Origin: a virus
Lineage: Duplodnaviria > Caudoviricetes
Direction: 5' to 3' (one strand)
IMG/VR virus record: IMGVR_UViG_3300029305_006521
Location: 1-64,000 of that record
DNA: 64,000 bases
Positions 48,256-60,670 of this stretch are shown here, one piece after another. The position numbers and the translations under genes were made by a program. The notes beneath the pieces are model-generated. The model was not told where the DNA came from. It searched no databases and saw nothing but the letters and a program-made list of their open reading frames with translations. Position 1 is the first letter of the stretch. The number at the start of each line of letters is the position of its first letter.

Positions 48256-48284
48256 TTGACATATTTAGATGTATGCTGTATACT
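48256..48284 (+). promoter_or_regulatory. Sigma-A promoter of the first rightward unit; a palindrome half-site lies in its spacer
   Basis: TTGACA-17-TATACT, A-tract UP element upstream, TTTAGATGT at 48264-48272. Confidence 0.85.
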
Positions 48285-48332: not shown

Positions 48333-48851
48333 ATGAGCAAAATCTATGTATTCAAGGCAACCGACAAGGGTATCATTGGCAAAGCCTTTGAAATGGCTAT
48401 CAAAGACAGCCTGAACCGCAAAAATGCTGACAGGGTCAGCCCCTGCGGAACTTGCGATTTCCGCTATAATCGCAAAGCCTATGATACTAAACAGAACGGC
48501 TCTGTTCTCAAGTATGACGGCGTAGACGGCTATGTTCGCGGCTCTTCCCGTGTTATCTATGCAACCCATGTTGCCCACACCATGAGCGTGCAGGGTGAGC
48601 AGGCTTTCATCTCTATCGACCTGATGAACACTGAAATGTTCGTCCTTGACAAAAAGGACTTTGTGGAAGAGCTTGAGCGCATGAACGCTATGAAGTACAA
48701 TGCCGCAAGGCATGAAATCAATATCCAGACCATGTACAACTACAAAAAGGACGCCTACCACGGCAAGAAAGGCAAGGACCTTGAACAGTGGGCATGGGAG
48801 AACTGCCTTGAGGATGATATCCTTGACGCAATCATTGAGGGGCTTGAATAA
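48333..48851 (+). CDS. PD-(D/E)XK restriction-endonuclease-like nuclease (putative)
   Basis: GKAFE helix...CD...YDTK arrangement; start ATG 48333 after AAGGA. Confidence 0.5.
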   Translation: MSKIYVFKATDKGIIGKAFEMAIKDSLNRKNADRVSPCGTCDFRYNRKAYDTKQNGSVLKYDGVDGYVRGSSRVIYATHVAHTMSVQGEQAFISIDLMNTEMFVLDKKDFVEELERMNAMKYNAARHEINIQTMYNYKKDAYHGKKGKDLEQWAWENCLEDDILDAIIEGLE

Positions 48852-48859
48852 AGCCCCTT

Positions 48860-48907
48860 TGGGTCAGCCGGTAAGAGTCCGGCTCTGATGAGCAAGAGCG
48901 AAACCCA
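48860..48907 (+). ncRNA. Type III hammerhead ribozyme
   Basis: UGGGUC|AGCCGG-loop-CCGGCU-CUGAUGA-GC-AAGA-GC-GAAACCCA: intact core, GUC cleavage triplet, stems I, II and III all pair. Confidence 0.85.
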
Positions 48908-48929
48908 TAAAAGAAAGGAAGCTAAGAAA

Positions 48930-49238
48930 ATGAAAGAAGCCTATACTGATATCTGCAAGATGATTGTCAAGATGATGGAGAAAGAAGCTAAGTATGAAGC
49001 TGAATATGATGCCGCATATGAAGCCTTTTTCGACCAGAACCACGCTGTCACCTACTGGGAAGAACGGTATAAAGAAGAAGGGGAAGCCGTAGGTAGTGAA
49101 CTGGATGCCGCCTATGATGCTAACCATGAAGCTTGGCAAAAGCAGAGTGATGCTGGTGATAAACTTGATGTAGTCCGTGATATTCTAAGGCACCTTAGAG
49201 AAGCCGCCGAACTGATTGAAGATAATGAGGGGATATAA
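48930..49238 (+). CDS. Acidic helical hypothetical protein
   Basis: ATG 48930 after GAAAGGA, immediately downstream of the ribozyme. Confidence 0.8.
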   Translation: MKEAYTDICKMIVKMMEKEAKYEAEYDAAYEAFFDQNHAVTYWEERYKEEGEAVGSELDAAYDANHEAWQKQSDAGDKLDVVRDILRHLREAAELIEDNEGI

Positions 49239-49277: not shown

Positions 49278-49335
49278 CTTAGATGTAGCACATCTAAATC
49301 CCAATGTTGACAAATGGGAAACTATGTAGTACAAT
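49278..49335 (+). promoter_or_regulatory. Palindrome plus sigma-A promoter (gap 8)
   Basis: TTGACA 49307, 17-bp spacer, TACAAT 49330. Confidence 0.85.
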
Positions 49336-49367
49336 GTATATACAGTAAAGGAAAGGGGAACACGAAC

Positions 49368-49826
49368 ATGAGTAACTATACTATCTACTTTGACATGGAC
49401 GGTACCATTGCAAACCTGTATGGGGTTGACAACTGGCTTGACAAGCTGAGGGCTGAGGATGCAAGCCCATATGTAGAAGCTGAGCCTATGGTCGATATGT
49501 GTGAACTGAGTCGCCTCCTGTGTAAAGCTGTTGAGATGGGCTACAGGCTGGGTATTATCAGTTGGCTGAGCCGAGAGGCATCGCAGGAGTATAAGAAAGA
49601 AATCCGAGCTGCAAAGCGTGCATGGTTGGAAGAAAATCTCGATGTAGATTTTGATGAAATTCATCTTGTGCAGTATGGCACAAGAAAAGATTATGTGGCA
49701 CAGGATAAACAGGGAATTATCTTTGATGATGATGAAAGAGTGAGAAATAATTGGAAAGGTTTTGCAATCAATCCAGAGGAAACAAATATGATTGATTTTC
49801 TGAAATTTATTGTAATGGACGAGTAA
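49368..49826 (+). CDS. HAD-superfamily 5'(3')-nucleotidase-like hydrolase
   Basis: FDMDGTIA motif I, IIS motif II, K and IFDD motifs. Confidence 0.8.
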   Translation: MSNYTIYFDMDGTIANLYGVDNWLDKLRAEDASPYVEAEPMVDMCELSRLLCKAVEMGYRLGIISWLSREASQEYKKEIRAAKRAWLEENLDVDFDEIHLVQYGTRKDYVAQDKQGIIFDDDERVRNNWKGFAINPEETNMIDFLKFIVMDE

Positions 49827-49851
49827 TCGTCCATTTTTTTTGAGAAAAAGA

Positions 49852-49909
49852 TTTAGATGTGGAACATCTAAATTGGGGTATTGACAAAATTGTCCCGAAA
49901 TGGTATACT
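49852..49909 (+). promoter_or_regulatory. Palindrome plus sigma-A promoter (gap 8)
   Basis: TTGACA 49881-17-TATACT 49904. Confidence 0.85.
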
Positions 49910-49942
49910 TTAAGTACAGTAAAGGAAAGGAAAAATAAAAAA

Positions 49943-50221
49943 ATGAAAAAAGCATTTGAAATGAACAAAATCGCATCTGAGGCAGTTATGGAAAAAATCG
50001 AAAAAATGGAAAAAAATGCCGTAGAAACCGTAGAAAAGAAAATTTTCCCTCAGATTGAAGCCGAAGCAAAAAAAGGTTTCTACAATGTAAAATTTCATGT
50101 AGATAGCAATATTGAAAAAAATATTGTTGTAAAAATTTTGGAAGAAAATGGTTATGTAGTAAAAGCAAATGGATACCATCTTTCTATTGATTGGTATATG
50201 GCAAGAGAAATTGGGGAATAA
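49943..50221 (+). CDS. Hypothetical protein (paralogue of 55291-55566)
   Basis: AKKG...L.E.GY.V....I.W pattern; SD AAGGAAAGG. Confidence 0.75.
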   Translation: MKKAFEMNKIASEAVMEKIEKMEKNAVETVEKKIFPQIEAEAKKGFYNVKFHVDSNIEKNIVVKILEENGYVVKANGYHLSIDWYMAREIGE

Positions 50222-50238
50222 TTTTCCCTTTTTCTAAA

Positions 50239-50306
50239 TTTAGATGTACCACATCTAAAAACAAAATAATTTTCCTATTGCTTTTTTCAGAAATATCTGT
50301 TATAAT
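50239..50306 (+). promoter_or_regulatory. Palindrome plus sigma-A promoter (gap 18)
   Basis: TTGCTT 50278-17-TATAAT 50301. Confidence 0.8.
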
Positions 50307-50373
50307 TTAATTACAGTAAAGGACAGGGAAAAACAAAATCCCGAAATTAAAAGAAAGAAAAGGAGAAAAGAAA

Positions 50374-50766
50374 ATGCGAGTAACTAAGACTGTCAGGGAG
50401 TATATCGAAAAGAAGGTAGCCGAAAAGGTATATGTAAAGTATGAAGCTGAGAAGCTGGAAGCAAAGCTGCAGAATGAAGAAATTCATAATTTTGTCGAAG
50501 AACTTGAAGATACAATGAATGAATATGTTGACAAACATATCAAGATGTTTGTTGAAGAACATCCTTATGCCGAAAGAAGCGCACGAGAAAGACTGGTTTC
50601 TTTTTACAGTCCTATTAACATTATTGACCGTCATATGAATTCTTCTGTTCATAACTGGCAGAGTCGTGCCCGCGCAGAAATCAAGGAAAAAGTTGATGAT
50701 ATCATCGTCACTCTTGAACTTGGTGGTACTAAGGCAGATTTGGAGCGGATGATTTCTGAAATTTAA
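50374..50766 (+). CDS. Hypothetical protein
   Basis: 130-aa ORF, SD AAGGAG. Confidence 0.8.
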   Translation: MRVTKTVREYIEKKVAEKVYVKYEAEKLEAKLQNEEIHNFVEELEDTMNEYVDKHIKMFVEEHPYAERSARERLVSFYSPINIIDRHMNSSVHNWQSRARAEIKEKVDDIIVTLELGGTKADLERMISEI

Positions 50767-50843
50767 TTTCTGCAAAATGGTTGATATAGATGTTCCTTTC
50801 TTTGGAGAGAGTCGGGAGAAATCCCGATTTTCTTCTAAAATAA

Positions 50844-50911
50844 TTTAGATGTACTACATCTAAATTTGACATTCTTTTTTATTTGACAAAATTTCTAATT
50901 TGTGTTATACT
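50844..50911 (+). promoter_or_regulatory. Palindrome plus sigma-A promoter (gap 18)
   Basis: TTGACA 50883-17-TATACT 50906. Confidence 0.85.
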
Positions 50912-50943
50912 AATTACAGAAAAAAGGAAAGGAAATCCCGAAA

Positions 50944-51111
50944 ATGATTAACGAAATTAAAATACTATTTGCAGATGATTATATTAAAGTTGGCCGCAAG
51001 GTAATACGACCTTTCTCCTTCGCTTGGTGGTGTATTCAGCTAAGCAAGGTTTTGATTGGTGTCCTTTCTTTTTATTTCCTTTACTGTTCCTTGTGGATGC
51101 TGGCGGCATAA
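50944..51111 (+). CDS. 55-aa membrane protein (absent from ORF track)
   Basis: MINEIKILFADD...VLIGVLSFYFLYCSLWMLAA; own promoter, SD and a hairpin over the stop codon. Confidence 0.75.
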   Translation: MINEIKILFADDYIKVGRKVIRPFSFAWWCIQLSKVLIGVLSFYFLYCSLWMLAA

Positions 51112-51127
51112 GCTGCCAGCTCCAATA

Positions 51128-51185
51128 TTTAGATGTTCTACATCTAAATTCCTTTGTTGACAAAATAAGATTACTATGGTACAAT
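51128..51185 (+). promoter_or_regulatory. Palindrome plus sigma-A promoter (gap 8)
   Basis: TTGACA 51157-17-TACAAT 51180. Confidence 0.85.
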
Positions 51186-51216
51186 GTATATACAGTAAAG
51201 GAAAGGAAACAAAACA

Positions 51217-51459
51217 ATGAAGATTATTGATGTTATTAATTTTTACTATACTAACCATGAAGTTATTAAAGTCAAAGTAGAGGCTAATGAAGGTATTGAA
51301 GGGAGATATCATAAGCTCACAAAGCAGGAAGCATATGATTTTCTTGATGGTTTTTACGATGAAGAAGTTGTTGTAATTATTTTCGAAACTCATACTACAT
51401 TTTGTGGAAAAATTTCTCGTGAACTTGAGATTCCTCTTTTGTATATTCTTTACAAGTAA
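51217..51459 (+). CDS. Hypothetical protein
   Basis: 80-aa ORF with SD and terminator. Confidence 0.75.
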   Translation: MKIIDVINFYYTNHEVIKVKVEANEGIEGRYHKLTKQEAYDFLDGFYDEEVVVIIFETHTTFCGKISRELEIPLLYILYK

Positions 51460-51487
51460 TAATTTAGGGGATTATTCCCCTTTTAAT

Positions 51488-51545
51488 TTTAGATGTTCTA
51501 CATCTAAATTCTTCTATTGACTTTTAATATTTATTGTGATAGAAT
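51488..51545 (+). promoter_or_regulatory. Palindrome plus sigma-A promoter (gap 8)
   Basis: TTGACT 51517-17-TAGAAT 51540. Confidence 0.8.
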
Positions 51546-51574
51546 TATATTAACAAAAGAAAGGAAATAAAAAA

Positions 51575-52039
51575 ATGATTTCATTCATTGTATTTAATGT
51601 TATCAATGTTATTATTCAAACTATTAAATCTATCGTTACTATCAAATGTAATAAGTATGTTGCCGCAGTTGTCAATGCAGTTGCTTATGGTCTTTATACT
51701 TATATTGTAGTATTGACTGCAAGTGATTTGGATTTGTGGTTTAAGATTACAGTAACTGCCGCCGCGAATCTTGTTGGTGTGTTTGTAGTCAAATGGGTAG
51801 AAGAAAAGAAGCGCAAGGATAAACTTTGGAAAGTAGAAGCAACAGTTTATGATGTTTATACTGAAAGTTTGCATAATGATTTGAAGAAAGCCGAAATTCC
51901 CCATAATTATATTACAGATATCGGAAAGTATTCTATTTTTAACATCTATTGTGAAACTCAAAAAGATAGCGCAAAAGCAAAACAAATTCTTGATTATAAT
52001 AAAGCAAAATATTTTGTTAGTGAGACTAAAATTTTGTAA
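51575..52039 (+). CDS. Membrane protein, DUF5698/DUF2179-like
   Basis: Three N-terminal TM helices (NVIIQTIKSI...K..K..AA...NLVGV) plus a soluble C-terminal domain. Confidence 0.6.
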   Translation: MISFIVFNVINVIIQTIKSIVTIKCNKYVAAVVNAVAYGLYTYIVVLTASDLDLWFKITVTAAANLVGVFVVKWVEEKKRKDKLWKVEATVYDVYTESLHNDLKKAEIPHNYITDIGKYSIFNIYCETQKDSAKAKQILDYNKAKYFVSETKIL

Positions 52040-52049
52040 GAGGTAAAAT

Positions 52050-52154
52050 ATGAAAGGAATTTTTATAGAAATAATTTTAAGAATATTATACGTATTAACT
52101 ATATTTTTGTGTTGGGGATTGGTTGTTATTGGTATTTTAACACTTTTCGTATAA
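52050..52154 (+). CDS. 34-aa single-TM peptide (absent from ORF track)
   Basis: MKGIFIEIILRILYVLTIFLCWGLVVIGILTLFV; SD GAGGT; followed by a terminator. Confidence 0.6.
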   Translation: MKGIFIEIILRILYVLTIFLCWGLVVIGILTLFV

Positions 52155-52188
52155 GGCGGGCAACCGTCTTTTTTTTTGTAGAAAATTA

Positions 52189-52246
52189 TTTAGATGTTCT
52201 ACATCTAAATTCTCCAGTTGACAAAATTAAAATAAAATGTTATACT
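52189..52246 (+). promoter_or_regulatory. Palindrome plus sigma-A promoter (gap 8)
   Basis: TTGACA 52218-17-TATACT 52241. Confidence 0.85.
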
Positions 52247-52279
52247 AAATACAACAAAAAGGAAAGGAAATTAAAAAAA

Positions 52280-52651
52280 ATGAAGGCAACTGGTATTGTA
52301 AGGCGTATTGATGATTTGGGTCGTGTGGTTATCCCTAAGGAAATTCGGAGAATGATGAATATCAAAGAAGGTGAAGCTCTGGAAATTTTTACCGAAGATA
52401 AAAAGGTAATTTTTCAGAAATATTTTACTCCCGAAGAAAATATTTCCGAAGCAAGTGCGGAATGGGTGAGGTCTCATGCAAAGGAAATCAAGTTTGTTAA
52501 TTCTGTTGAAGGTGTAACAACTTGCGGTTTTAACAGTGGTTCAATTCGTATGGCGTGCGTCAAGCATAATCCTTCCGATAAATTTGATTTGAATGTTGCA
52601 ATTTGTTACTGTGCAAAGAAAGCAGGTTATTATGTAGAGCATTTGAATTGA
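52280..52651 (+). CDS. AbrB/SpoVT-family DNA-binding protein
   Basis: MKATGIVRRIDDLGRVVIPKEIRR matches the SpoVT N-terminus as I recall it; C-terminus too short for the GAF domain. Confidence 0.88.
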   Translation: MKATGIVRRIDDLGRVVIPKEIRRMMNIKEGEALEIFTEDKKVIFQKYFTPEENISEASAEWVRSHAKEIKFVNSVEGVTTCGFNSGSIRMACVKHNPSDKFDLNVAICYCAKKAGYYVEHLN

Positions 52652-52680
52652 TAAAAGGGGATTTTCCCCTTTTTTTATTT

Positions 52681-52748
52681 TTTAGATGTTCTACATCTAA
52701 ATTTATTTTTCAAAATCCGTTGACTTTTTCCCTATTATTTGGTATACT
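52681..52748 (+). promoter_or_regulatory. Palindrome plus sigma-A promoter (gap 18)
   Basis: TTGACT 52720-17-TATACT 52743. Confidence 0.85.
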
Positions 52749-52818
52749 TAATACAACGAAAGGGGAACAAACCCCAAATAAGGGTAGCGACCTAACCGCT
52801 AAATGAAAGGAAACTAAA

Positions 52819-53190
52819 ATGGAAAACACTGCTAACAAGATGACCGCCCGCAACTTCTACAACGCAATCGCCGCCGGCACTATCAACAGTGAGCTGATGG
52901 AGTACGCCGCCGAAGCTCTCCGTAAGATGGATGAAGCCAATGAAAAGCGCAAGACGAAGATTTCTCCCTCTCAGCTCGAGAATGAGAAGCTCAAGAATGA
53001 AATCGCAGAAAAGATGGTTGGCATGGGTTATACTACTGCCGCGACCATTGCAGAAATGATGGGTATTTCTCCCAACAAGGCAAGCGCACTTTGCCGCATG
53101 ATGGCGGATGAAAAGGATGGTCGTTTCGTAGTCACGGAAGTGAAGAACGAAAAAAAGAACAAGGTTAAGGCGTACAAACTTGCAGACTAA
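52819..53190 (+). CDS. Winged-helix DNA-binding protein (paralogue of 56885-57226)
   Basis: TAATIAEMMGISPNKASALCR HTH followed by a beta-wing ending KAYKLA. Confidence 0.7.
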   Translation: MENTANKMTARNFYNAIAAGTINSELMEYAAEALRKMDEANEKRKTKISPSQLENEKLKNEIAEKMVGMGYTTAATIAEMMGISPNKASALCRMMADEKDGRFVVTEVKNEKKNKVKAYKLAD

Positions 53191-53232
53191 TAAAAGTGGG
53201 GACGGAAGTCCCCATTTTTTTTAACGAAAAAA

Positions 53233-53300
53233 TTTAGATGTTCAACATCTAAAAAATAAATAATTTGACTATTGCAATTTATTCCCCGTTGTGGTATACT
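53233..53300 (+). promoter_or_regulatory. Palindrome plus sigma-A promoter (gap 18)
   Basis: TTGCAA 53272-17-TATACT 53295. Confidence 0.8.
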
Positions 53301-53332
53301 TTAAGTACAGTAAAGGAAAGGAATACCAAACC

Positions 53333-53995
53333 ATGATTGATAAGCGTAAGACCTATTATCTCACCATTGACACCGAAACCGCAAATAATCTTGACAATCC
53401 TTTTGTCTTTGATATTGGCGGAGCTGTGCATGATAAGCATGGAAATGTGGAAGAAACTTTTTCTTTCATTGTCCGTGAAGTTTTTATCGAAATGCCCGAC
53501 CTGATGAAAGAATGTTTTTATCAGTCTAAGCTACCTGCATATCGTGAACAAATCCGGCAGGGCGAACGCATTGTAAAAAATTATTATGAAATCCGCAAGC
53601 ACATCAACAACTTGTGTGAAAAGTATAATATCAAGGCAATTATTGCCCATAATATGCGCTTTGATTATCGTTCCACCACTACCACTCAGCGCTATATTAC
53701 TTACTCAAAGTATCGTTATTTTTTCCCTTGTGATGTTGAATTGTGGGATACTTTGAAAATGGCGCAAGATACAATTTGCAAGCAAAAAACTTATATCCGT
53801 TTTTGTGAAGAAAATGGATATACCAAAAAGAACGGAAGTCCCAGGGCAACCGCCGAAATTCTTTACCGTTATATCAGCGGAAATAATGATTTTGTTGAAA
53901 GTCATACAGGTTTGGAAGATGTTTTGATAGAGAAAGAAATTTTTGCCAAGTGTATGGCACAACATAAAAAAATGAGAAAAAACGTTTGGGAGTAA
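53333..53995 (+). CDS. DEDDh 3'-5' exonuclease
   Basis: IDTET (ExoI), AHNMRFD (ExoII), HTGLED (ExoIII). Confidence 0.85.
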   Translation: MIDKRKTYYLTIDTETANNLDNPFVFDIGGAVHDKHGNVEETFSFIVREVFIEMPDLMKECFYQSKLPAYREQIRQGERIVKNYYEIRKHINNLCEKYNIKAIIAHNMRFDYRSTTTTQRYITYSKYRYFFPCDVELWDTLKMAQDTICKQKTYIRFCEENGYTKKNGSPRATAEILYRYISGNNDFVESHTGLEDVLIEKEIFAKCMAQHKKMRKNVWE

Positions 53996-54019
53996 TCCCA
54001 AACTTTTTTTCAAAGACAA

Positions 54020-54097
54020 TTTAGATGTTCTACATCTAAAAAGTCTTTTAGAAAATTATAAAAAGGGGTTGCAATCTATCATTTATTGTGGTATACT
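54020..54097 (+). promoter_or_regulatory. Palindrome plus sigma-A promoter (gap 28)
   Basis: TTGCAA 54069-17-TATACT 54092. Confidence 0.8.
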
Positions 54098-54129
54098 TAA
54101 TACATCAAAAGGAAAGGAAAATAAACCAA

Positions 54130-54459
54130 ATGAAAAACACCACTGCTAATGTAATCCGTGAACGCTATCTGTCCGCAATCATGTCCTATTTCACCGATGA
54201 AGATATCGGGCGTATTACCTCTAACAGCTTTAACTTCCCCATTGTAGAGGGTGATGAAGAGGGCTGGGTTGAAATCGTGGTGAAAATTCCCAAAGAATCT
54301 GGGGATGAGGGCTACGACAAGAGGGAAGAATATCGCCTGAAACTTGAAGAAAAGGCACAGAAAGCGGAAGAACGGCAGAAAGCCAAGGAAAAGAAAATCG
54401 AGCGGGATAAGAAATTGAGAGAAGAAAAGAAAAAGAAAAAGGAAGAACAGAGCGAATAA
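54130..54459 (+). CDS. Hypothetical protein with highly charged K/E C-terminal helix
   Basis: ATG 54130 after AAGGAAAGG. Confidence 0.75.
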   Translation: MKNTTANVIRERYLSAIMSYFTDEDIGRITSNSFNFPIVEGDEEGWVEIVVKIPKESGDEGYDKREEYRLKLEEKAQKAEERQKAKEKKIERDKKLREEKKKKKEEQSE

Positions 54460-54501
54460 AAAAGAATGGGGAGCAATCCCCATTTTTTTTTGAAAAGACT
54501 T

Positions 54502-54558
54502 TTTAGATGTTCTACATCTAAATTTGTTGTTGACAATTGGCGGCCGACAGTGTATAAT
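54502..54558 (+). promoter_or_regulatory. Palindrome plus sigma-A promoter (gap 7)
   Basis: TTGACA 54530-17-TATAAT 54553. Confidence 0.85.
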
Positions 54559-54581
54559 AGAACTATCGAAAGGAGATAAAA

Positions 54582-54893
54582 ATGGAAAAGAAAGATTTTG
54601 TTTACTTTATACGAATAGGCGAACCCGAAGAAAATCTATATAAGATTGGAACGACCAACAATATGGATAGGCGGATGAAAGAACATCAGCGATATTATAA
54701 AAAAGAAATTACTGTTCTTTGGCAGTCGCCGCCCTATTCAAAATGGACTACATTGCGCGTAGAAGAGAACACCAAAGAAATTTGGAAAAAAACTGAAGGT
54801 TTTGAATATTTGAGGAATGACAGATTTATAATTAATCCCGAAATTAGACAGGTGAAAATTAAGGTTAGAAAAGAATGGGTGATAGACTTTTAA
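54582..54893 (+). CDS. GIY-YIG superfamily (T5orf172-like) nuclease
   Basis: FVYFI...YKIGTT.N..RR..E motif. Confidence 0.75.
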   Translation: MEKKDFVYFIRIGEPEENLYKIGTTNNMDRRMKEHQRYYKKEITVLWQSPPYSKWTTLRVEENTKEIWKKTEGFEYLRNDRFIINPEIRQVKIKVRKEWVIDF

Positions 54894-54918
54894 GGTCTAT
54901 CACTTTTTTTTGAAACAA

Positions 54919-54975
54919 TTTAGATGTTCTACATCTAAATTTATTGTTGACAAACTGCCGCCAATGATGTAAAAT
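54919..54975 (+). promoter_or_regulatory. Palindrome plus sigma-A promoter (gap 7)
   Basis: TTGACA 54947-17-TAAAAT 54970. Confidence 0.85.
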
Positions 54976-55007
54976 GGTATTAAAGAAAAGGAAAGGAAAT
55001 AAAGAAA

Positions 55008-55268
55008 ATGAATGAAATTAAAATGCTTTGGTTGATGTTCATAAGTCTGTGCCACGACACTGGACAGCACATTATTTTTGATGTGCGGATGTGGTGGGAA
55101 TCTCGATTCAACCATAAGAATTTTGGCTATTCTCACACTTTTGGCAAAAATGGTTATTTCATTAATTGCAATAATTGGTTTGTTCCTTGTGATAAGTCTT
55201 TCTCTTATGGTTGCGTAGATACAATGGTTGAATGGCGAAATGGAAACCCTTATTTTGTAAAAAGTTAA
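55008..55268 (+). CDS. Hypothetical aromatic-rich protein
   Basis: 86-aa ORF with SD. Confidence 0.7.
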   Translation: MNEIKMLWLMFISLCHDTGQHIIFDVRMWWESRFNHKNFGYSHTFGKNGYFINCNNWFVPCDKSFSYGCVDTMVEWRNGNPYFVKS

Positions 55269-55290
55269 AAAGGAAAGAGAGGTAAATAAA

Positions 55291-55566
55291 ATGTTCTATC
55301 CCTTCACCGCCCCTATGGCATGTGTCGCTTCCAAAACTTCTGTTGATGAAACCAAATTCGAGACCGAAATCCTTATTAAGGCTTATGCGGAAATTGCTCA
55401 TGTGTGGATTAATCGTGCCGCAAAAAAGGGTTGCTTCAGGACTACTATTTATGTCCCTTACGAAGCCCGCAGGCTTCTCGATGATTTGAAAGAATCTGGT
55501 TTTGAAGTCAAGCATCTTGAGAAAAATTATTATGGTGTTCATTGGGGTGATGGTGCTATTCTCTAA
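55291..55566 (+). CDS. Hypothetical protein (paralogue of 49943-50221)
   Basis: AAKKG...LKESGFEV....VHW. Confidence 0.75.
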   Translation: MFYPFTAPMACVASKTSVDETKFETEILIKAYAEIAHVWINRAAKKGCFRTTIYVPYEARRLLDDLKESGFEVKHLEKNYYGVHWGDGAIL

Positions 55567-55612
55567 ATAATGAAGTATCCCATTGGGATACTTCTTTTTT
55601 TTGAAAAAGTTT

Positions 55613-55669
55613 TTTAGATGTTCTACATCTAAAGAATCATTTGACATTTGCGGCGGTATGTGGTATTAT
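55613..55669 (+). promoter_or_regulatory. Palindrome plus sigma-A promoter (gap 7)
   Basis: TTGACA 55641-17-TATTAT 55664 with TG. Confidence 0.8.
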
Positions 55670-55698
55670 ATACTTACAGAAAGGAAGGAGATAAAAAA

Positions 55699-55860
55699 AT
55701 GAAAGAATACAGGATTTATTTCACCAAGTATTATACCTATTATGTAGAAGCAGAAACCGAAGATGAAGCAATCGAAATTGCGGAAGATGATTTTGAAGCA
55801 GATATGCGTTGTCCCATTGCAGATACAACTTATGACGAAGTAGAGGTAGAAGAAGTATGA
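55699..55860 (+). CDS. Small acidic protein (VEAE.EDEA motif)
   Basis: ATG 55699 after AAGGAG. Confidence 0.7.
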   Translation: MKEYRIYFTKYYTYYVEAETEDEAIEIAEDDFEADMRCPIADTTYDEVEVEEV

Positions 55861-55988
55861 GTTACTGTGAACAGAGCAATTGCGGTTACTACTGGAAAGA
55901 AGAGGGAGAAGACTTCCCTTGTTGCCATTTTGAAGGATGGATTGCACCATGTGAATATGAGGATGATTATGAGGAGGAAGAGGAATGA
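55857..55988 (+). CDS. 43-aa Cys-rich acidic protein (absent from ORF track)
   Basis: MSYCEQSNCGYYWKEEGEDFPCCHF...EEEEE; ATGA overlaps at both ends. Confidence 0.65.
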   Translation: MSYCEQSNCGYYWKEEGEDFPCCHFEGWIAPCEYEDDYEEEEE

Positions 55989-56173
55989 AAATTGCCGAAT
56001 GTCCTTATTGTAAAGAAGAACTTGAAATTGATGAAAGTTATGATATCGATGTTGAAGATATCGATATGGTAATAAATAGAGTAGCAGGACATTGCCCCAA
56101 TTGCAATAAAGAATTTCAATGGGAAGAAATTTATAAATACAGTCATTTTTCTAATTTGGAGGAAATTTGTTAA
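55985..56173 (+). CDS. Zn-ribbon protein
   Basis: CPYC...CPNC. Confidence 0.7.
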   Translation: MKIAECPYCKEELEIDESYDIDVEDIDMVINRVAGHCPNCNKEFQWEEIYKYSHFSNLEEIC

Positions 56174-56355
56174 TGAGATTTATACAAAGTGAAAAAATTG
56201 TTTTGTCTCAGAGTGAAAATAACACTTTCTATGATTTCTTTAATCTCATTACAGGACTTGCAAGAGGTACACGAAATCCTAATACTGAAAGAGCAATTCT
56301 AAAAATTCAGGAACTTGTTAGTGATTTGTGGGAAGGATTGGAAGTAGAAGAATAA
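56173..56355 (+). CDS. Hypothetical protein
   Basis: TAATG coupling, SD GGAGG. Confidence 0.65.
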   Translation: MRFIQSEKIVLSQSENNTFYDFFNLITGLARGTRNPNTERAILKIQELVSDLWEGLEVEE

Positions 56356-56611
56356 AAATTTGGGTCTTAACAGACCCTATTTTTTTACAAAAAAAATTTA
56401 GATGTGTCACATCTAAGTCAAATTTTTTCTTTTTCAAATTTTCTCCACCGGTGGCGTCGCGTCAAATTTTTTCTTTTGTCAAATTTTCAAATGAGCTGCA
56501 AATGAGCTGCGATGTCAAATTTCAGCTGCTAAGCTGCGAATCGCGGCGGTTGTCAAATTTTGTGTGGTTGAGCTGTGAATTGAGCTGTAAAAACTTGACA
56601 GCAGCTGCGAT

Positions 56612-56751
56612 TTGAAAAAACTGCAATTTTTTATTATAATATATATAGAAAGTGAGAGAAAAATAATAAAAAGGAGACACCCCTTTCACAGTGTTCTTTA
56701 CTCACTTTCTGCACGGGATCTTTTGCAAATGAGTTGCGGGTTCGCCCGCAA
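56612..56751 (+). ncRNA. Candidate small non-coding RNA with its own promoter
   Basis: TTGAAA-17-TATAAT; AGAAAGTGAG (56647) pairs with CTCACTTTCT (56701); ends in GCGGG-UUCG-CCCGC; no SD-linked ORF. Confidence 0.5.
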
Positions 56752-56771
56752 AATGTTAATAAAGCGAAAAT

Positions 56772-56800
56772 TTGAAAAACATTCAAAAATGCGCTATAAT
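56772..56800 (+). promoter_or_regulatory. Sigma-A promoter of the second wHTH gene
   Basis: TTGAAA-17-TATAAT followed by ATAGAAAGTGAGA. Confidence 0.75.
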
Positions 56801-56884
56801 ATTTATAGAAAGTGAGAGAGAGATAGTAACTCTCTCCGCAAATAAAAAACTGGGTGGCGACCGACGCTGAAAGGATAATAAACT

Positions 56885-57226
56885 ATGACTAACCGTGAAT
56901 TCTTCGAAGCTATCGTATCTAACACTTCCCTCTCTGCTGAAATGCATGAGCACGCCGAAAAGGAAATCGCTCGTATTGATGCCGCCAATGAGAAGGCCGC
57001 CGCGAAGCGTGCTGAAAAGGCAGCTGAAGATCAGCCCCTGCTCGATGCACTGACTGCTGCGCTGACCACTGAATTCCAGACCGCCTCCGATCTGAAGAGT
57101 GTAATTGAGTGCTCTGTACAGAAGACCTCTTCTCTGCTTCGTAAGCTTGTTAAGGCAAACGTAGCTGTTGATGGCGAAGTAAAGATTCCCAAGAAGGGTA
57201 TGCAGAAGGCTTATAAGCTGGCTTAA
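56885..57226 (+). CDS. Winged-helix DNA-binding protein (paralogue of 52819-53190)
   Basis: TASDL...SVQKTSSLLRKLV HTH, ends KAYKLA; strongly biased codons. Confidence 0.7.
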   Translation: MTNREFFEAIVSNTSLSAEMHEHAEKEIARIDAANEKAAAKRAEKAAEDQPLLDALTAALTTEFQTASDLKSVIECSVQKTSSLLRKLVKANVAVDGEVKIPKKGMQKAYKLA

Positions 57227-57274: not shown

Positions 57275-57426
57275 TGATTCAAAAAATTTTTTTATTTTGA
57301 AAAATTTGCAAGGGGTTTGAAATTTTGCCAGGTATTTTTACTCCCCACTGCCAATCATCTCTCTTTTTGAGCATCGCCCCGTCATGTGAACCACCACACC
57401 ATTTTTTAACCACCAGCAACATAATC

Positions 57427-57780
57427 TACGTATTCTACTACGTAGAGCACTGCGTCGAAACCTGCGTTGATGACAACTGGATAACTTTCTCCGCTACTAT
57501 CCCCTTGGCCCTCGCCCTTAATAACGTAATTAAATACGTATACTTCTACGTTGTCGTGAATTTGCCTTTCCGCCCTTGGCGAAAGTCAAATTCAGCGCTG
57601 CGCGCATTGTCTTGACTGACCCTAGATTACCCTTTATCCTACCTGGCCCTTAATTACGTTTAAGTATAAATATACTATTACGTATACTACTACGTTTATT
57701 AATACGTTAATAATTAATTATATTACTATATATATTAATACGTACTTAATAACGTATACTAATACGTATTCATCTACGTA
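57427..57780. repeat. Degenerate 12-bp-periodic repeat with WACGTW core
   Basis: Cores start at 57427, 57439, 57523, 57535, 57547, 57655, 57679, 57691, 57703, 57739, 57751, 57763, 57775; all in the same phase modulo 12. Confidence 0.8.
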
Positions 57781-57968
57781 TTAAAGTCTTTTTTCTCTCT
57801 TGGTTCCTCTACAATTTTCCGAAAATTTTTCTCTCTCAAATTTTACATTATGATTTTCTGCAAAATTTTCCTCAAAATTCCATTGGACTCTGCGGCCGAT
57901 GCTATTCTCAACGCTGATTTTTCCCAGAATTTTTTATCATTAGCCGCAACCAACAAAAAAAAGACTGC

Positions 57969-58351: not shown

Positions 58352-58702
58352 TTATTTTCCTTCCTTTCTAATTGATTCAAGTTCTTCGATAACAATTTCC
58401 ATTATTGTTCTTTTATCTTGATCAGTAATCTTATAACCAAGCTTATTTAATCTTTCATCAACTTTAGTATAAACATCATTCAAATGTTTTTCATAATAAA
58501 CATTAATATTTGTTTCATCAATTAAACCTGCTTGCTTTCTCTTTAAATATTCCAGAAAATATTCACCAGATAAAGTTAATTGAGATTTAAAAAATGCTTT
58601 CCTTACGCTCTTTTTCAAGTTCAACCAAAATATTTCTAAATTTAATTTCACGTTGTTCCACTTGCTCTTCATCATCTTTGTATATATATCCTGCATAATC
58701 AA
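58352..58702 (-). CDS. Hypothetical protein
   Basis: ORF overlapping the kinase 3' end; start uncertain. Confidence 0.5.
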   Translation of the reverse strand: MIMQDIYTKMMKSKWNNVKLNLEIFWLNLKKSVRKAFFKSQLTLSGEYFLEYLKRKQAGLIDETNINVYYEKHLNDVYTKVDERLNKLGYKITDQDKRTIMEIVIEELESIRKEGK

Positions 58703-59333
58703 TAATTACCAAATTATCATTATCATCATAACCTACATTACCACAATGTAAATCATCAATTTCAGCAAAATTAAGAAATTGAAAAAGCCTATCAGCTTCT
58801 TTATCACCATAATAATCCAGAAAAGCTTGATTCACTGCAGTGGTCTCATCAAAATTGTGATTATACCAAATTTCAACGTCATCATCATCTTCAGAATCAC
58901 CATCATAAAGAGAGTAAAAATGGTCACTTACTCGAGTTTCATCAACATATACTTTCTTCATCACATACACTGGAATCGTTCCCCATTCACATTCAAATGG
59001 TACGAGTTCTGCGGCCGCTGCAAAAAAGTTATCAAAACCCATTTTCTCAGCAAGTTGATAAGTCATTACTTCAATAATACAGTCATTAGGCTTTTCACTA
59101 AATCTGGCCAATCGAGGAATTTTCAACACCCAATCAAAATCATCAAAAACAAATACTGTTCGATAAAGCCCAGATTCTACAGAAAAATCATAAAGTCTCG
59201 TCAACTTTCTATCAGCATCACGCAAACTGTTATCACTGTAATAACCAGTGTCAGGCCGCACCAACCATTCTCCAAGACCACAATCAACCGCGTCTTTCAA
59301 AAAATGATGCATGAATTTCTGAACTTCCTTCAT
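58587..59333 (-). CDS. Protein-kinase-like (PKL fold) enzyme
   Basis: SGLYRTVF Gly-loop, VLKIP lysine, helix-C Glu, DLHCGN catalytic loop, IIDYAG (DFG equivalent). Confidence 0.75.
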   Translation of the reverse strand: MKEVQKFMHHFLKDAVDCGLGEWLVRPDTGYYSDNSLRDADRKLTRLYDFSVESGLYRTVFVFDDFDWVLKIPRLARFSEKPNDCIIEVMTYQLAEKMGFDNFFAAAAELVPFECEWGTIPVYVMKKVYVDETRVSDHFYSLYDGDSEDDDDVEIWYNHNFDETTAVNQAFLDYYGDKEADRLFQFLNFAEIDDLHCGNVGYDDNDNLVIIDYAGYIYKDDEEQVEQREIKFRNILVELEKERKESIF

Positions 59334-60506: not shown

Positions 60507-60670
60507 TCTCTTTCTCCTTTCTTCTTTATAAAGCAAGAAGATAATCAACCTAAGAGCGTACTCAGCACAAATGCCTTATGGGTGTTTCAGGGTTGCTCGT
60601 ATTGACTGTTTAAGAGCAAGCTACTATCAACTATCCTTTTTCACTTTCTCTCTTCTCACTTTCTATAATT

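What the first reader, a model, noticed from the sequence alone, without database searches (positions are those of the whole stretch)
49278..56417. Array of self-contained gene cassettes, each delimited by a conserved 21-bp palindrome
Seen: TTTAGATGT-N3-ACATCTAAA occurs 14 times in 7.1 kb, and I saw no full copy elsewhere in the window. The arms are nearly invariant (only the outermost base differs in the first and last copies) while the centre varies (TCT x8, AGC, GGA, ACC, ACT, TCA, GTC). Thirteen copies follow one grammar: terminator hairpin, palindrome, sigma-A promoter with 17-bp spacer, purine-rich SD, then 1-4 short unrelated ORFs (nucleotidase, exonuclease, GIY-YIG, SpoVT-like, wHTH, membrane peptides). 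The 14th copy closes the array with no adjacent promoter. Known: phage early/host-takeover regions (e.g. SPO1) have many strong promoters, and conserved arms with a free centre typify dimeric DNA-binding sites. Inference: this is one regulon of plug-in effector cassettes under a single factor, or the palindrome also marks junctions for cassette gain, loss and shuffling in an integron-like way. I do not recognise the motif from any described system.
Basis: partly seen in the sequence, partly recalled or inferred. Interest (0 to 1): 0.92.

Follow-up and report, generated by a model that had tools for sequence, protein, structure and literature searches.

The report
Phased palindromic operator heading phage cassettes
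An uncultured 145-kb gut phage puts one invariant 19-bp palindrome, always on the same face of the DNA helix, in front of 13 strong host-type promoters of small early-gene units; it is most likely the docking site of a still unidentified regulator, and it is also the seam at which related phages gain, lose and swap these units.

Summary
TTAGATGT-N3-ACATCTAA occurs 14 times in window 49279-56416 (0 expected). It occurs nowhere else in the 144,568-bp phage genome.

Thirteen copies lie 7-8, 18 or 28 bp upstream of a near-consensus sigma-A -35 box. The same motif occurs about 800 times in related uncultured phages whose core proteins are only 30-75% identical. Gaps there follow the same ~10.5-bp ladder.

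Two sister groups use mirror-symmetric variants, TTAGACGT..ACGTCTAA and TTAGGTGT..ACACCTAA. Each genome uses one class only.

This fits a dimeric, sequence-specific protein that touches RNA polymerase. The protein was not identified. The AbrB-like gene is not universal. The winged-helix, g54130, exonuclease-like and nucleotidase-like families show no residues that track the palindrome class. No host regulon was seen.

Close relatives of this phage differ by whole cassettes, with several junctions at the palindrome edges and others in the promoter/leader or SD. No integrase or resolvase is present. Exchange therefore looks like ordinary homologous recombination, as at T4 PeSL elements, not integron-like.

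The scan found this motif before on other DNA (e1-5746844, e1-5750769) and read it the same way. I class it as a new variant of a known kind.

The parts
48256..48284 (+). First promoter of the rightward early block: TTGACA-17-TATACT with one lone half-site TTAGATGT (48265-48272) inside the spacer. There is no upstream palindrome.
   Evidence: The syntenic first promoters of relatives G001 (TTGACATCTAA overlapping the -35 box) and G002 also carry one half-site in the core promoter.
48333..49238 (+). Two genes driven by the first promoter: 48333-48851 (172 aa, PD-(D/E)xK-nuclease-like by motif; positional homologues in G001 and G002 share KATDxG..G.AFE.A) and 48888-49238 (116 aa, helical).
   Evidence: no Pfam match; alignment of the three first genes.
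49278..49826 (+). Cassette 1. Palindrome 49278-49298 (centre AGC, first base C). Gap 8. Promoter 49307-49335. Gene 49368-49826 (152 aa, HAD-like DxDGT motif, function unverified).
   Evidence: Homologues in 28 class-1 and 36 class-2 loci.
49852..50221 (+). Cassette 2. Palindrome 49852-49872 (GGA). Gap 8. Promoter 49881-49909. Gene 49943-50221 (92 aa, ORFan).
50239..50766 (+). Cassette 3. Palindrome 50239-50259 (ACC). Gap 18. Promoter about 50278-50306 (TTGCTT-17-TATAAT, read by eye). Gene 50374-50766 (130 aa, ORFan).
50844..51111 (+). Cassette 4. Palindrome 50844-50864 (ACT). Gap 18. Promoter 50883-50911. Gene 50944-51111 (55 aa, hydrophobic).
51128..51459 (+). Cassette 5. Palindrome 51128-51148 (TCT). 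Gap 8. Promoter 51157-51185. Gene 51217-51459 (80 aa). The whole cassette is absent from close relative L272.
51488..52154 (+). Cassette 6. Palindrome 51488-51508 (TCT). Gap 8. Promoter 51517-51545. Genes 51575-52039 (154 aa, membrane) and 52050-52154 (34 aa).
52189..52651 (+). Cassette 7. Palindrome 52189-52209 (TCT). Gap 8. Promoter 52218-52246. Gene 52280-52651 (123 aa, AbrB/MazE/SpoVT-type N-domain).
   Evidence: (PF04014, 5.5e-11). The family is absent from G002-G005.
52681..53190 (+). Cassette 8. Palindrome 52681-52701 (TCT). Gap 18. Promoter 52720-52748. Gene 52819-53190 (123 aa, winged-helix paralogue 1).
53233..53995 (+). Cassette 9. Palindrome 53233-53253 (TCA). Gap 18. Promoter 53272-53300. 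Gene 53333-53995 (220 aa, DEDDh-exonuclease-like by motif; phrog_20187).
   Evidence: Present in the arrays of all five genomes and in 40+43 loci.
54020..54459 (+). Cassette 10. Palindrome 54020-54040 (TCT). Gap 28. Promoter 54069-54097. Gene 54130-54459 (109 aa, very conserved family with a beta-hairpin core and a long Lys-rich helix).
54502..54893 (+). Cassette 11. Palindrome 54502-54522 (TCT). Gap 7. Promoter 54530-54558 (12/12 consensus). Gene 54582-54893 (103 aa, T5orf172/GIY-YIG).
   Evidence: Absent from relative L272.
54919..55566 (+). Cassette 12. Palindrome 54919-54939 (TCT). Gap 7. Promoter 54947-54975. Genes 55008-55268 (86 aa; absent from L272 and L273) and 55291-55566 (91 aa).
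55613..56355 (+). Cassette 13. Palindrome 55613-55633 (TCT). Gap 7. Promoter 55641-55669. Four overlapping small genes: 55699-55860, 55857-55988, 55985-56173 (Zn-ribbon-like) and 56173-56355.
56397..56417 (.). 14th palindrome (centre GTC, last base G). It follows the last terminator and has no promoter at a phased distance.
56418..57226 (+). Conserved distal anchor of the array. A control region carries GTCAAATTT and AGCTGC repeats and two tandem promoters of a second class (56612-56640, 56772-56800; leader TATAGAAAGTGAGAGA). The terminal winged-helix gene is 56885-57226 (113 aa).
   Evidence: The same arrangement follows the last palindrome in G001 and G002.

Best explanation
The palindrome is an operator. 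It is the binding site of a dimeric, sequence-specific DNA-binding protein, one monomer per 8-bp arm with arm centres about one helical turn apart. The site sits upstream of the -35 box on the same helical face as RNA polymerase, with its centre near -54, -64 or -74, and so co-regulates all 13 early cassettes at once.

Shown: the site is invariant, genome-specific in class, and helically phased to near-consensus sigma-A promoters. One half-site lies inside the core of the first early promoter.

Inferred: the protein contacts RNA polymerase, probably through the alpha C-terminal domain. The promoters are already near consensus. By analogy with phi29 p4 at the strong A2c promoter, the more likely effect is a coordinated shut-off or clamp of early transcription (about 55:45 over activation). 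The lone half-site would act by occlusion at the first promoter. The factor is unidentified. I lean towards a phage-encoded protein outside the array (about 0.45) over a host factor (about 0.3).

Second role, shown by comparison: the palindrome plus promoter/leader is repeated every 0.3-0.8 kb, so it serves as the homology seam at which general recombination adds, deletes and swaps cassettes, as PeSL elements do in T4-type phages.
For: (1) There are 14 exact copies against 0 expected, confined to 7.1 kb of a 144.6-kb genome.
(2) Gaps to the -35 box in this phage are 7-8 (x8), 18 (x4) and 28 (x1), although the gap sequences are unrelated.
(3) Family-wide, class 1 gives 677 unique promoter contexts. 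574 have gap 7-9. Of the 78 with gap 12 or more, 57 lie within 2 bp of 8+n*10.5 (p=4e-10). The opposite side of the palindrome gives a flat control.
(4) Class 2 has 367 of 386 contexts in phase, with peaks at 8, 17-18, 28, 38-39 and 49-50. Class 3 has 59 of 59 in phase.
(5) The arms are exact in 782 of 911 sites even when 3 mismatches are allowed. The phages carrying them share only 30-75% identity in core proteins and two of them read TAG as sense.
(6) Most variant sites change one arm only, including T-to-C changes that would give A.C mismatches in a hairpin. Sequence is conserved rather than pairing.
(7) Three classes differ by a mirrored dinucleotide and are mutually exclusive per genome: 796 to 1 in class-1 loci and 0 to 487 in class-2 loci.
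(8) Lone half-sites lie in the core of the syntenic first promoter in G000, G001 and G002. G002 has extra half-sites beside full sites.
(9) Seam evidence: of 278 internal homology breakpoints between close relatives, 47% lie within 30 bp of a palindrome centre, against 12% at random. L111 carries two extra cassettes bounded by palindromes. Against this phage's own relatives L271, L272 and L273, the block 53233-54939 ends exactly at -10 and +10 of palindrome centres in both genomes, and cassette 5 is deleted through the palindrome-promoter-leader repeat.
(10) The free centre triplet is homogeneous within a genome and differs between genomes, which indicates concerted evolution.
Against: No binding protein was found. 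No HTH-type protein is shared by the five class-1 genomes. The AbrB-like gene is missing from four of them. The four most widespread array families (winged helix, g54130, exonuclease-like, nucleotidase-like) have no alignment column that separates the palindrome classes. The winged-helix recognition helix is the same in classes 1 and 2. No host regulon with the motif was seen in 185,579 species representatives; there are only single, unrelated copies plus mis-binned phage fragments. The promoters are near consensus and may need no activator, so the direction of regulation is an inference. The class-defining changes are mirror-symmetric and therefore also preserve hairpin potential. The 14th copy has no promoter. 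There are no expression, footprint or TSS data.
Confidence: 0.7

Rival explanations
1. A variant of the operator reading. The site is bound by a host transcription factor that the phages exploit to tie early transcription to host state, as phi29 uses Spo0A boxes near its early promoters. The three classes would then correspond to three host lineages with diverged factors.
For: The arms are invariant across phages with 30-75% core identity and two genetic codes. That is easier to explain by an external, slowly evolving partner. No universal phage-encoded HTH protein was found. No array family co-varies with class. There is a precedent: host Spo0A sites near phi29 early promoters (PMC2731898).
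Against: No multi-site regulon was seen in any prokaryote representative genome. The few Clostridia hits are single copies in unrelated contexts or terminator-like hairpins. All three classes occur in phage contigs from one metagenome, 3300031994, which is compatible but not telling. The true hosts may be missing from the collection.
Confidence: 0.3
2. The palindrome acts as a hairpin or cruciform, not as duplex DNA. It could be an N4-type hairpin promoter for a phage RNA polymerase, or an RNA stem-loop in read-through transcripts (processing site or back-up terminator).
For: It is a perfect 8-9-bp stem with a 3-nt loop, as in N4 early promoters (own knowledge). The phage encodes gyrase A. The class-defining changes are compensatory. 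The site lies just downstream of terminators.
Against: Sequence, not just pairing, is invariant over about 800 copies. Most variants change one arm, including A.C-forming changes. The stem is weak (-6.7 kcal/mol as RNA, -5.6 as DNA). The distance to the terminator varies while the distance to the -35 box is phased. No T7/N4-type RNA polymerase domain was found, though this is a weak test. No Rfam family matches. Lone half-sites in promoters cannot form hairpins.
Confidence: 0.07
3. The primary role is site-specific recombination. A dedicated enzyme, for example the PD-(D/E)xK-like product of the first early gene or a GIY-YIG protein, would cut or exchange at the palindrome in an integron-like cassette system without an integrase.
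For: Cassette junctions in relatives fall exactly at palindrome edges. The centre triplet is homogenised within genomes. A nuclease-like gene holds the conserved first position and its promoter carries a half-site. Cassette genes show no class-specific residues, as if they move between classes.
Against: No tyrosine or serine recombinase occurs in five genomes. Other junctions lie in the promoter/leader or SD repeats, not in the palindrome. Helical phasing to the -35 box has no role in recombination. The first-gene family evolves fast, unlike the invariant site. No circles or clean deletion joints were seen, though contig data cannot exclude them.
Confidence: 0.1

Closest known systems
PeSL (promoter-early stem-loop) regulatory cassettes in hyperplastic regions of T4-type phages (Arbiol et al. 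2010, PMC2839356; Comeau et al. 2014, PMC4122927)
   Same: Both are composite terminator plus strong sigma-70-type early promoter modules, repeated between small, mostly ORFan early genes in one plastic region. Close relatives differ by insertion, deletion and replacement of cassettes with junctions in the repeated modules.
   Different: PeSLs have no invariant sequence-specific palindrome; their stem-loops are G+C-rich terminators at variable places in or around the promoter. Here a separate A/T-rich 19-bp palindrome with fixed arms sits at helically phased distances from the -35 box and exists in three genome-specific classes. The phages are unrelated to T4: they carry a DnaE-type polymerase, have Firmicute-type signals and no cultured relative. 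Mini-circles were not shown here.
phi29 protein p4 sites at promoters A2c, A2b and A3, and host Spo0A boxes near phi29 early promoters (PMC2731898; p4 mechanism from own knowledge of Monsalve, Rojo, Salas et al.)
   Same: An inverted-repeat site lies upstream of sigma-A promoters, and the bound protein acts through contact with RNA polymerase. With a strong -35 box the outcome is repression of early promoters; without one it is activation. A host factor can use sites in the same regions.
   Different: phi29 has a handful of sites with a different sequence and spacing. Here one site is copied before 13-41 promoters per genome. No p4 homologue or any other binder was identified.
Class I CRP-type activator sites (centres -61.5, -71.5, -82.5, -92.5; own knowledge) and CcpA cre at -56.5 of B. 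subtilis ackA (own knowledge)
   Same: A palindromic dimer site upstream of the -35 box works only at integral helical turns. The ladder seen here (about -54, -64, -74, -85) has the same logic.
   Different: Those are host regulons with degenerate sites. Here the arms are essentially invariant and confined to a phage early region.
Integrons (IntI, attI, attC cassette arrays)
   Same: Both are arrays of small unrelated genes separated by a repeated palindromic element at which cassettes are gained and lost.
   Different: No IntI or other recombinase is present. The element is a perfect, sequence-conserved palindrome rather than a structure-conserved imperfect attC. Every cassette has its own promoter, SD and terminator.

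Membership tests
PeSL-type regulatory cassettes (T4-type phages) | Strong sigma-70-like early promoter in each repeat | tested here: met
   13 promoters with 9-12 of 12 consensus matches (10 of them with 10-12), 17-bp spacers, many with TGn (cassette 3 read by eye). 727 of 784 copies in relatives have one. Promoter activity itself was not assayed.
PeSL-type regulatory cassettes (T4-type phages) | Stem-loop acting as terminator or attenuator within the repeat | tested here: met
   Terminator-like hairpins with T-runs lie just upstream of most copies. At least 289 of 677 family contexts have one by a crude detector. Here the terminator is a separate element upstream of the palindrome.
PeSL-type regulatory cassettes (T4-type phages) | Located in a hyperplastic region next to ORFans | tested here: met
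   Array size ranges from 14 to 41 sites among relatives, and most array genes are not shared.
PeSL-type regulatory cassettes (T4-type phages) | Indels and replacements between close relatives have junctions in the repeats | tested here: met
PeSL-type regulatory cassettes (T4-type phages) | Mini-circles formed by exchange between neighbouring repeats | tested here: inconclusive
   Only assembled contigs were available. One contig joins 49900 to 53292 through a shared 31-nt -10/leader stretch, which may be an assembly artefact.
PeSL-type regulatory cassettes (T4-type phages) | Host lineage: T4-like myoviruses | tested here: not met
   No cultured phage relative was found. The replication module is DnaE/DnaB/RecJ/gyrase. 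It works like a PeSL but is not a member by descent.
Integron | IntI-type tyrosine recombinase next to the array | tested here: not met
   PF00589 and PF00239 are absent from G000, G001, G002, G003 and G005. Controls were positive in 14 and 12 reference genomes.
Integron | Promoterless cassettes read from one common promoter | tested here: not met
   Each cassette has its own promoter, SD and terminator.
Integron | attC: imperfect hairpin conserved in structure, not sequence | tested here: not met
   The palindrome is perfect with invariant arms; 782 of 911 sites are exact.
N4-type hairpin early promoters | Virion or phage single-subunit RNA polymerase | tested here: inconclusive
   PF00940 was not found in five genomes, but the control set cannot ring for this family and divergent polymerases would be missed. 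The 2,422-aa protein at 17425-24693 has no Pfam match.
N4-type hairpin early promoters | Function depends on hairpin pairing rather than duplex sequence | tested here: not met
   Single-arm variants dominate among imperfect sites, and lone half-sites lie in promoters.
Operator of an RNAP-contacting dimeric regulator (CRP class I / phi29 p4 logic) | Dyad-symmetric site with conserved arms and a free centre | tested here: met
Operator of an RNAP-contacting dimeric regulator (CRP class I / phi29 p4 logic) | Position restricted to integral helical turns from the core promoter | tested here: met
Operator of an RNAP-contacting dimeric regulator (CRP class I / phi29 p4 logic) | A cognate protein that binds the site | not testable with these tools
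   Candidates were examined without support. This needs EMSA or pull-down.

The most novel reading that the evidence does not exclude
The three palindrome classes are alleles of a phage-borne 'address' system. A still unknown family of DNA-binding proteins, encoded outside the arrays and unlike known HTH families, co-evolves with 14-41 operators per genome. The same protein, or the conserved first-gene nuclease, also initiates exchange at the palindrome, so that any cassette entering a genome is re-fitted with the resident address. That would be a combined regulation and cassette-capture system, functionally parallel to integrons but without a recombinase.
Probability: 0.12. Interest if true: 0.85.

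Novelty: new variant of a known kind. Interest (0 to 1): 0.62.

Why it matters
Early, host-takeover regions of large phages hold most genes of unknown function, and how they are switched and renewed is poorly known outside T4, SPO1 and phi29.

Here a single 19-bp site tags every early promoter in a large, uncultured clade of gut and rumen phages. I found about 1,350 copies in three mutually exclusive classes.

- It gives a sequence handle for finding early genes in metagenomic phages.
- It predicts a missing regulator whose specificity can be read from the class of site.
- It shows, with exact junctions, how promoter-operator modules act as seams for gene exchange in a lineage unrelated to T4.

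The class system offers a clean experiment: three oligonucleotides that differ by one mirrored dinucleotide.

Tried and rejected
- **AbrB/SpoVT-like protein as binder:** rejected. PF04014 is found only in G001 among G001-G005.
- **Winged-helix family as binder:** it is strongly associated with arrays, and one copy always follows the last palindrome. But its recognition helix is the same in classes 1 and 2, and no column separates the classes. It is demoted, not excluded.
- **g54130, exonuclease-like and nucleotidase-like families:** widespread, but with no class-specific columns. The g54130 model is of low confidence in its N-domain (pLDDT 52-71), and the Atlas gave only unnamed viral clusters.
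- **Universal small DNA-binding protein in five genomes:** none found, including after reading TAG as sense in G003 and G005.
- **Host regulon:** none. Prokaryote hits are single copies in unrelated contexts, apart from short MAG contigs that are phage fragments binned as Acutalibacteraceae, Oscillospiraceae or Bacillota.
- **Cultured phages:** no relative. Only a 134-nt AbrB-domain match to a Bacillus phage.
- **Literature:** the two arm strings occur together only in unrelated papers.
- **Sequencing runs:** no RNA holder is listed. Only assembled contigs of animal-faeces DNA runs were available; they break at the repeats, and the short 'joints' are other phages sharing the palindrome.
- **Recombinases and T7-type RNA polymerase:** not found.
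- **Rfam:** no family at gathering score in the window.
- **PDB sequence search:** empty for the 'nucleotidase' and 'exonuclease'.
- **Foldseek on the winged-helix model:** only weak PadR/MarR/TFE/TubR-type matches, E 0.0075 or weaker.
- **Complex prediction:** not used, because no protein-protein claim is made.

Full report
**Observation.** The pattern TTAGATGT-N3-ACATCTAA occurs 14 times between 49279 and 56416, against none in 100 dinucleotide-preserving shuffles. The window is the first 64 kb of a 144,568-bp IMG/VR virus record that CheckV rates complete. Its ends overlap by about 130 bp inside an NrdD gene, so the assembly is circular or permuted. No further copy with up to 3 mismatches exists in the genome; there are only five lone half-sites.

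**Anatomy in the window.** Thirteen copies are followed by a near-consensus sigma-A promoter. This is TTGACA or a close variant, a 17-bp spacer, a -10 box often preceded by TGn, a conserved leader, the SD AAAGGAAAGGA, and one to four short genes. Most copies are preceded by a terminator-like hairpin with a T-run.

The distance from the end of the 21-mer to the -35 box is 8, 8, 18, 18, 8, 8, 8, 18, 18, 28, 7, 7, 7 bp. The sequences filling these gaps are unrelated. With the usual promoter geometry the dyad centre lies near -54, -64 or -74. The distance to the upstream terminator is variable.

Only two gene labels have family support: the AbrB/MazE/SpoVT N-domain (52280-52651) and T5orf172/GIY-YIG (54582-54893). 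The two winged-helix paralogues (52819-53190 and 56885-57226, 33% identical) are supported by a confident model of the latter: pLDDT 92, a long helix followed by a winged helix, with weak PadR/MarR-type structural matches. 'Nucleotidase' and 'exonuclease' rest on short motifs only.

**The flanks are part of the system.** The first rightward promoter (48256-48284) has no palindrome. It carries one half-site inside its spacer: TTGACAtatTTAGATGTatgctgTATACT. The syntenic first promoters of two relatives also carry one half-site in the core promoter, and the first gene is a weakly conserved PD-(D/E)xK-like protein in all three.

The 14th palindrome has no promoter at a phased distance. It abuts a control region with GTCAAATTT and AGCTGC repeats and two promoters of a second class: aaTTTGAaaaa, then TATAAT, then ATATATAGAAAGTGAGAG. 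These drive the terminal winged-helix gene 56885-57226. This arrangement is conserved after the last palindrome in G001 and G002.

**Relatives.** The exact motif occurs in 115 stretches of IMG/VR contigs, about 800 copies, with 16-41 copies per genome in a single cluster. Core proteins of four fetched genomes are 30-75% identical to those of this phage. Two of them (G003, G005) read TAG as sense.

No cultured phage is related. The phage carries a 2,729-aa tape-measure protein, DnaE-type polymerase, DnaB, RecJ, gyrase A and NrdD. It occurs in DNA runs labelled as animal faeces metagenomes. Short MAG contigs with two or more copies each (up to six) are binned as Acutalibacteraceae, Oscillospiraceae or Bacillota, which is a weak pointer to the host.

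**Phasing.** I took 677 unique class-1 promoter contexts.
- 574 have a gap of 7-9 bp.
- The rest cluster at 16-20, 27-31, 37-40 and near 65, with none at 10-15, 23-26 or 32-36.
- Of the 78 with a gap of 12 or more, 57 lie within 2 bp of 8+n*10.5 (38% expected; p=4e-10).
- The promoter-less side of the palindrome gives a flat distribution.

Such a ladder is the signature of a duplex-bound protein that must face RNA polymerase. Common descent alone would give a spread of indel lengths.

**Sequence, not structure, is conserved.** Allowing up to 3 mismatches, 782 of 911 sites are still exact. Variation concentrates at the symmetric positions 3/17 and 5/15 and is mostly in one arm, including changes that would create A.C mismatches in a hairpin. 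The hairpin is weak: -6.7 kcal/mol as RNA. Lone half-sites, extra half-sites 6 nt beside full sites in G002, and a block of four direct repeats each carrying a half-site upstream of the G005 array all point to a protein that reads the 8-bp arm.

**Three classes.** A more distant relative, found through the terminal winged-helix protein, carries TTAGACGT-N3-ACGTCTAA in the same grammar. This class has 487 copies in 80 stretches of viral contigs and never mixes with class 1: 0 class-1 sites there, and 1 class-2 site among 796 in class-1 loci. A third class, TTAGGTGT-N3-ACACCTAA, was found with a degenerate pattern.

Phasing holds in both new classes: 367 of 386 and 59 of 59 contexts in phase, and class 2 shows peaks at 8, 17-18, 28, 38-39 and 49-50. 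Mirror-symmetric, genome-wide uniform switches of one dinucleotide per arm are what a change in the specificity of a dimeric binder would produce.

**Who binds?** This was not resolved.
- The AbrB-like gene is absent from four of five relatives.
- No HTH-type protein is shared by the five class-1 genomes, also after reading TAG as sense.
- The winged-helix family is a hallmark of the arrays, with two copies in G000, G001 and G002 and presence in most class-2 loci. But its recognition helix (S-V/T-Q-K-A-S-x-L-L/C-R) is the same in classes 1 and 2.
- The very conserved g54130 family (207 homologues; core SNSFNFPIV..EEGWVEIVVKIPK plus a Lys-rich helix), the exonuclease-like family and the nucleotidase-like family are equally widespread.
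- None of these four families has a single alignment column that separates the classes.
- No host regulon was seen.

The determinant is therefore encoded outside the arrays or in the host. The lack of class-specific residues in cassette genes also suggests that cassettes move between classes and take on the recipient's palindrome.

**Direction of regulation (inference).** The promoters are near consensus. In phi29, an upstream protein that contacts the alpha subunit represses a promoter with a strong -35 box and activates one without; this is my own knowledge of the p4 literature, and one search supports the phi29 promoter background and the Spo0A precedent. On that analogy a coordinated shut-off of early transcription is somewhat more likely than activation. 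The half-site inside the first promoter fits repression by occlusion. This step is not shown.

**Cassette exchange.** Among IMG/VR relatives at 88% nucleotide identity or more, 47% of 278 internal homology breakpoints inside arrays lie within 30 bp of a palindrome centre, against 12% at random, with a sharp peak at its edges. L111 has two extra cassettes relative to L078, bounded by palindromes.

For this phage itself, metagenome contigs L271, L272 and L273 (85-94% identity) show the following.
- L271 replaces 52055-53233 by other cassettes.
- The aligned block 53233-54939 ends exactly 10 bp either side of palindrome centres in both genomes.
- L272 lacks cassette 5, with the crossover in the palindrome-promoter-leader repeat.
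- L272 and L273 lack genes with junctions in the promoter/leader or SD.

The free centre triplet is uniform within a genome and differs between genomes, which indicates concerted evolution. No tyrosine or serine recombinase is present. The pattern is that of homologous recombination between repeated regulatory modules, as described for PeSLs of T4-type phages.

**Comparison and novelty.** The system works like PeSL cassettes, but in an unrelated phage lineage. It adds a feature PeSLs lack: an invariant, phased, class-switching operator. It is not an integron, because three defining features were tested and not met. I found no paper describing the motif. The scan itself met the same palindrome in two other genomes and reached the same reading (e1-5746844, e1-5750769). 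The additions here are the three classes, the negative co-variation tests, the half-site in the first promoter, the conserved terminal anchor, and junctions in this phage's own close relatives.

**Verdict.** The feature is real. It is a new variant of a known kind. The mechanism is well constrained but the key protein is missing. Interest 0.62.

Noticed in passing
window 56612-56640, 56772-56800, and minus strand near 60665, 64124; genome 66184, 69541, 93344, 128684: A second promoter class: aaTTTGAaaaa, about 17 bp, TATAAT, then an invariant ATATATAGAAAGTGAGAG leader that doubles as the SD. It heads the leftward small-gene region, the terminal winged-helix gene and a MarR-like 83-aa gene. It is conserved in G001, G002 and G005. 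It may mark a middle temporal class.
   Followed up: partly
window 56418-56600: Five GTCAAATTT repeats and several GAGCTGC/AGCTGC repeats lie between the last palindrome and the terminal winged-helix gene. Similar repeats hold the same place in G001 and G002. They could be an operator set for another factor or an origin.
   Followed up: partly
window 57400-57800: A non-coding A/T-rich zone with many TACGTA/TACGTT cores lies at the convergence of rightward and leftward transcription. I saw it in the sequence but did not analyse it.
   Followed up: no
relatives G003 (IMGVR_UViG_3300031994_000024) and G005 (IMGVR_UViG_3300032038_000007): Both read TAG as a sense codon: the longest ORFs rise from about 1,340 aa to 4,700-6,000 aa when TAG is open. 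G000, G001 and G002 use the standard code. The same palindrome therefore spans two genetic codes.
   Followed up: yes
Rfam gives no match at gathering score in the whole window. A permissive search of 48700-49050 gives only a chance lncRNA hit at E 0.3.
   Followed up: partly
G005 153180-153335: Just upstream of that phage's array lie four direct ~41-bp repeats. Each holds one TTAGATGT half-site plus a different palindrome (GGTTAGTTATGACTAACTAACC). They are followed by a TTAGATGT-N4-ACATCTAA site. The second palindrome also sits beside a motif copy in MAG contig L164.
   Followed up: no
window 54130-54459: A 109-aa protein family that is unusually conserved for an early ORFan: 207 homologues, with the N-domain about 90% identical in phages whose other genes are about 60% identical. 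It has a helix, a beta-hairpin and a long Lys/Glu-rich helix. No known family matches.
   Followed up: partly
window 58587-59333 (minus strand): A 248-aa protein shared by all five genomes (phrog_4301, unknown function). It has HxGN and IIDYAG motifs reminiscent of a protein-kinase-like fold. This rests on motifs only.
   Followed up: no
window 49900 / 53292: One assembled contig of a faecal DNA run joins 49900 to 53292 through the 31-nt stretch shared by the -10/leader of cassettes 2 and 9. It is either a natural deletion of cassettes 2-8 or a k=31 assembly artefact.
   Followed up: no
genome 87978-88601 (L268:3978-4601, minus strand): A GIY-YIG homing-endonuclease-like gene with a NUMOD-like DNA-binding tail. 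Copies occur at non-syntenic places in the relatives.
   Followed up: no
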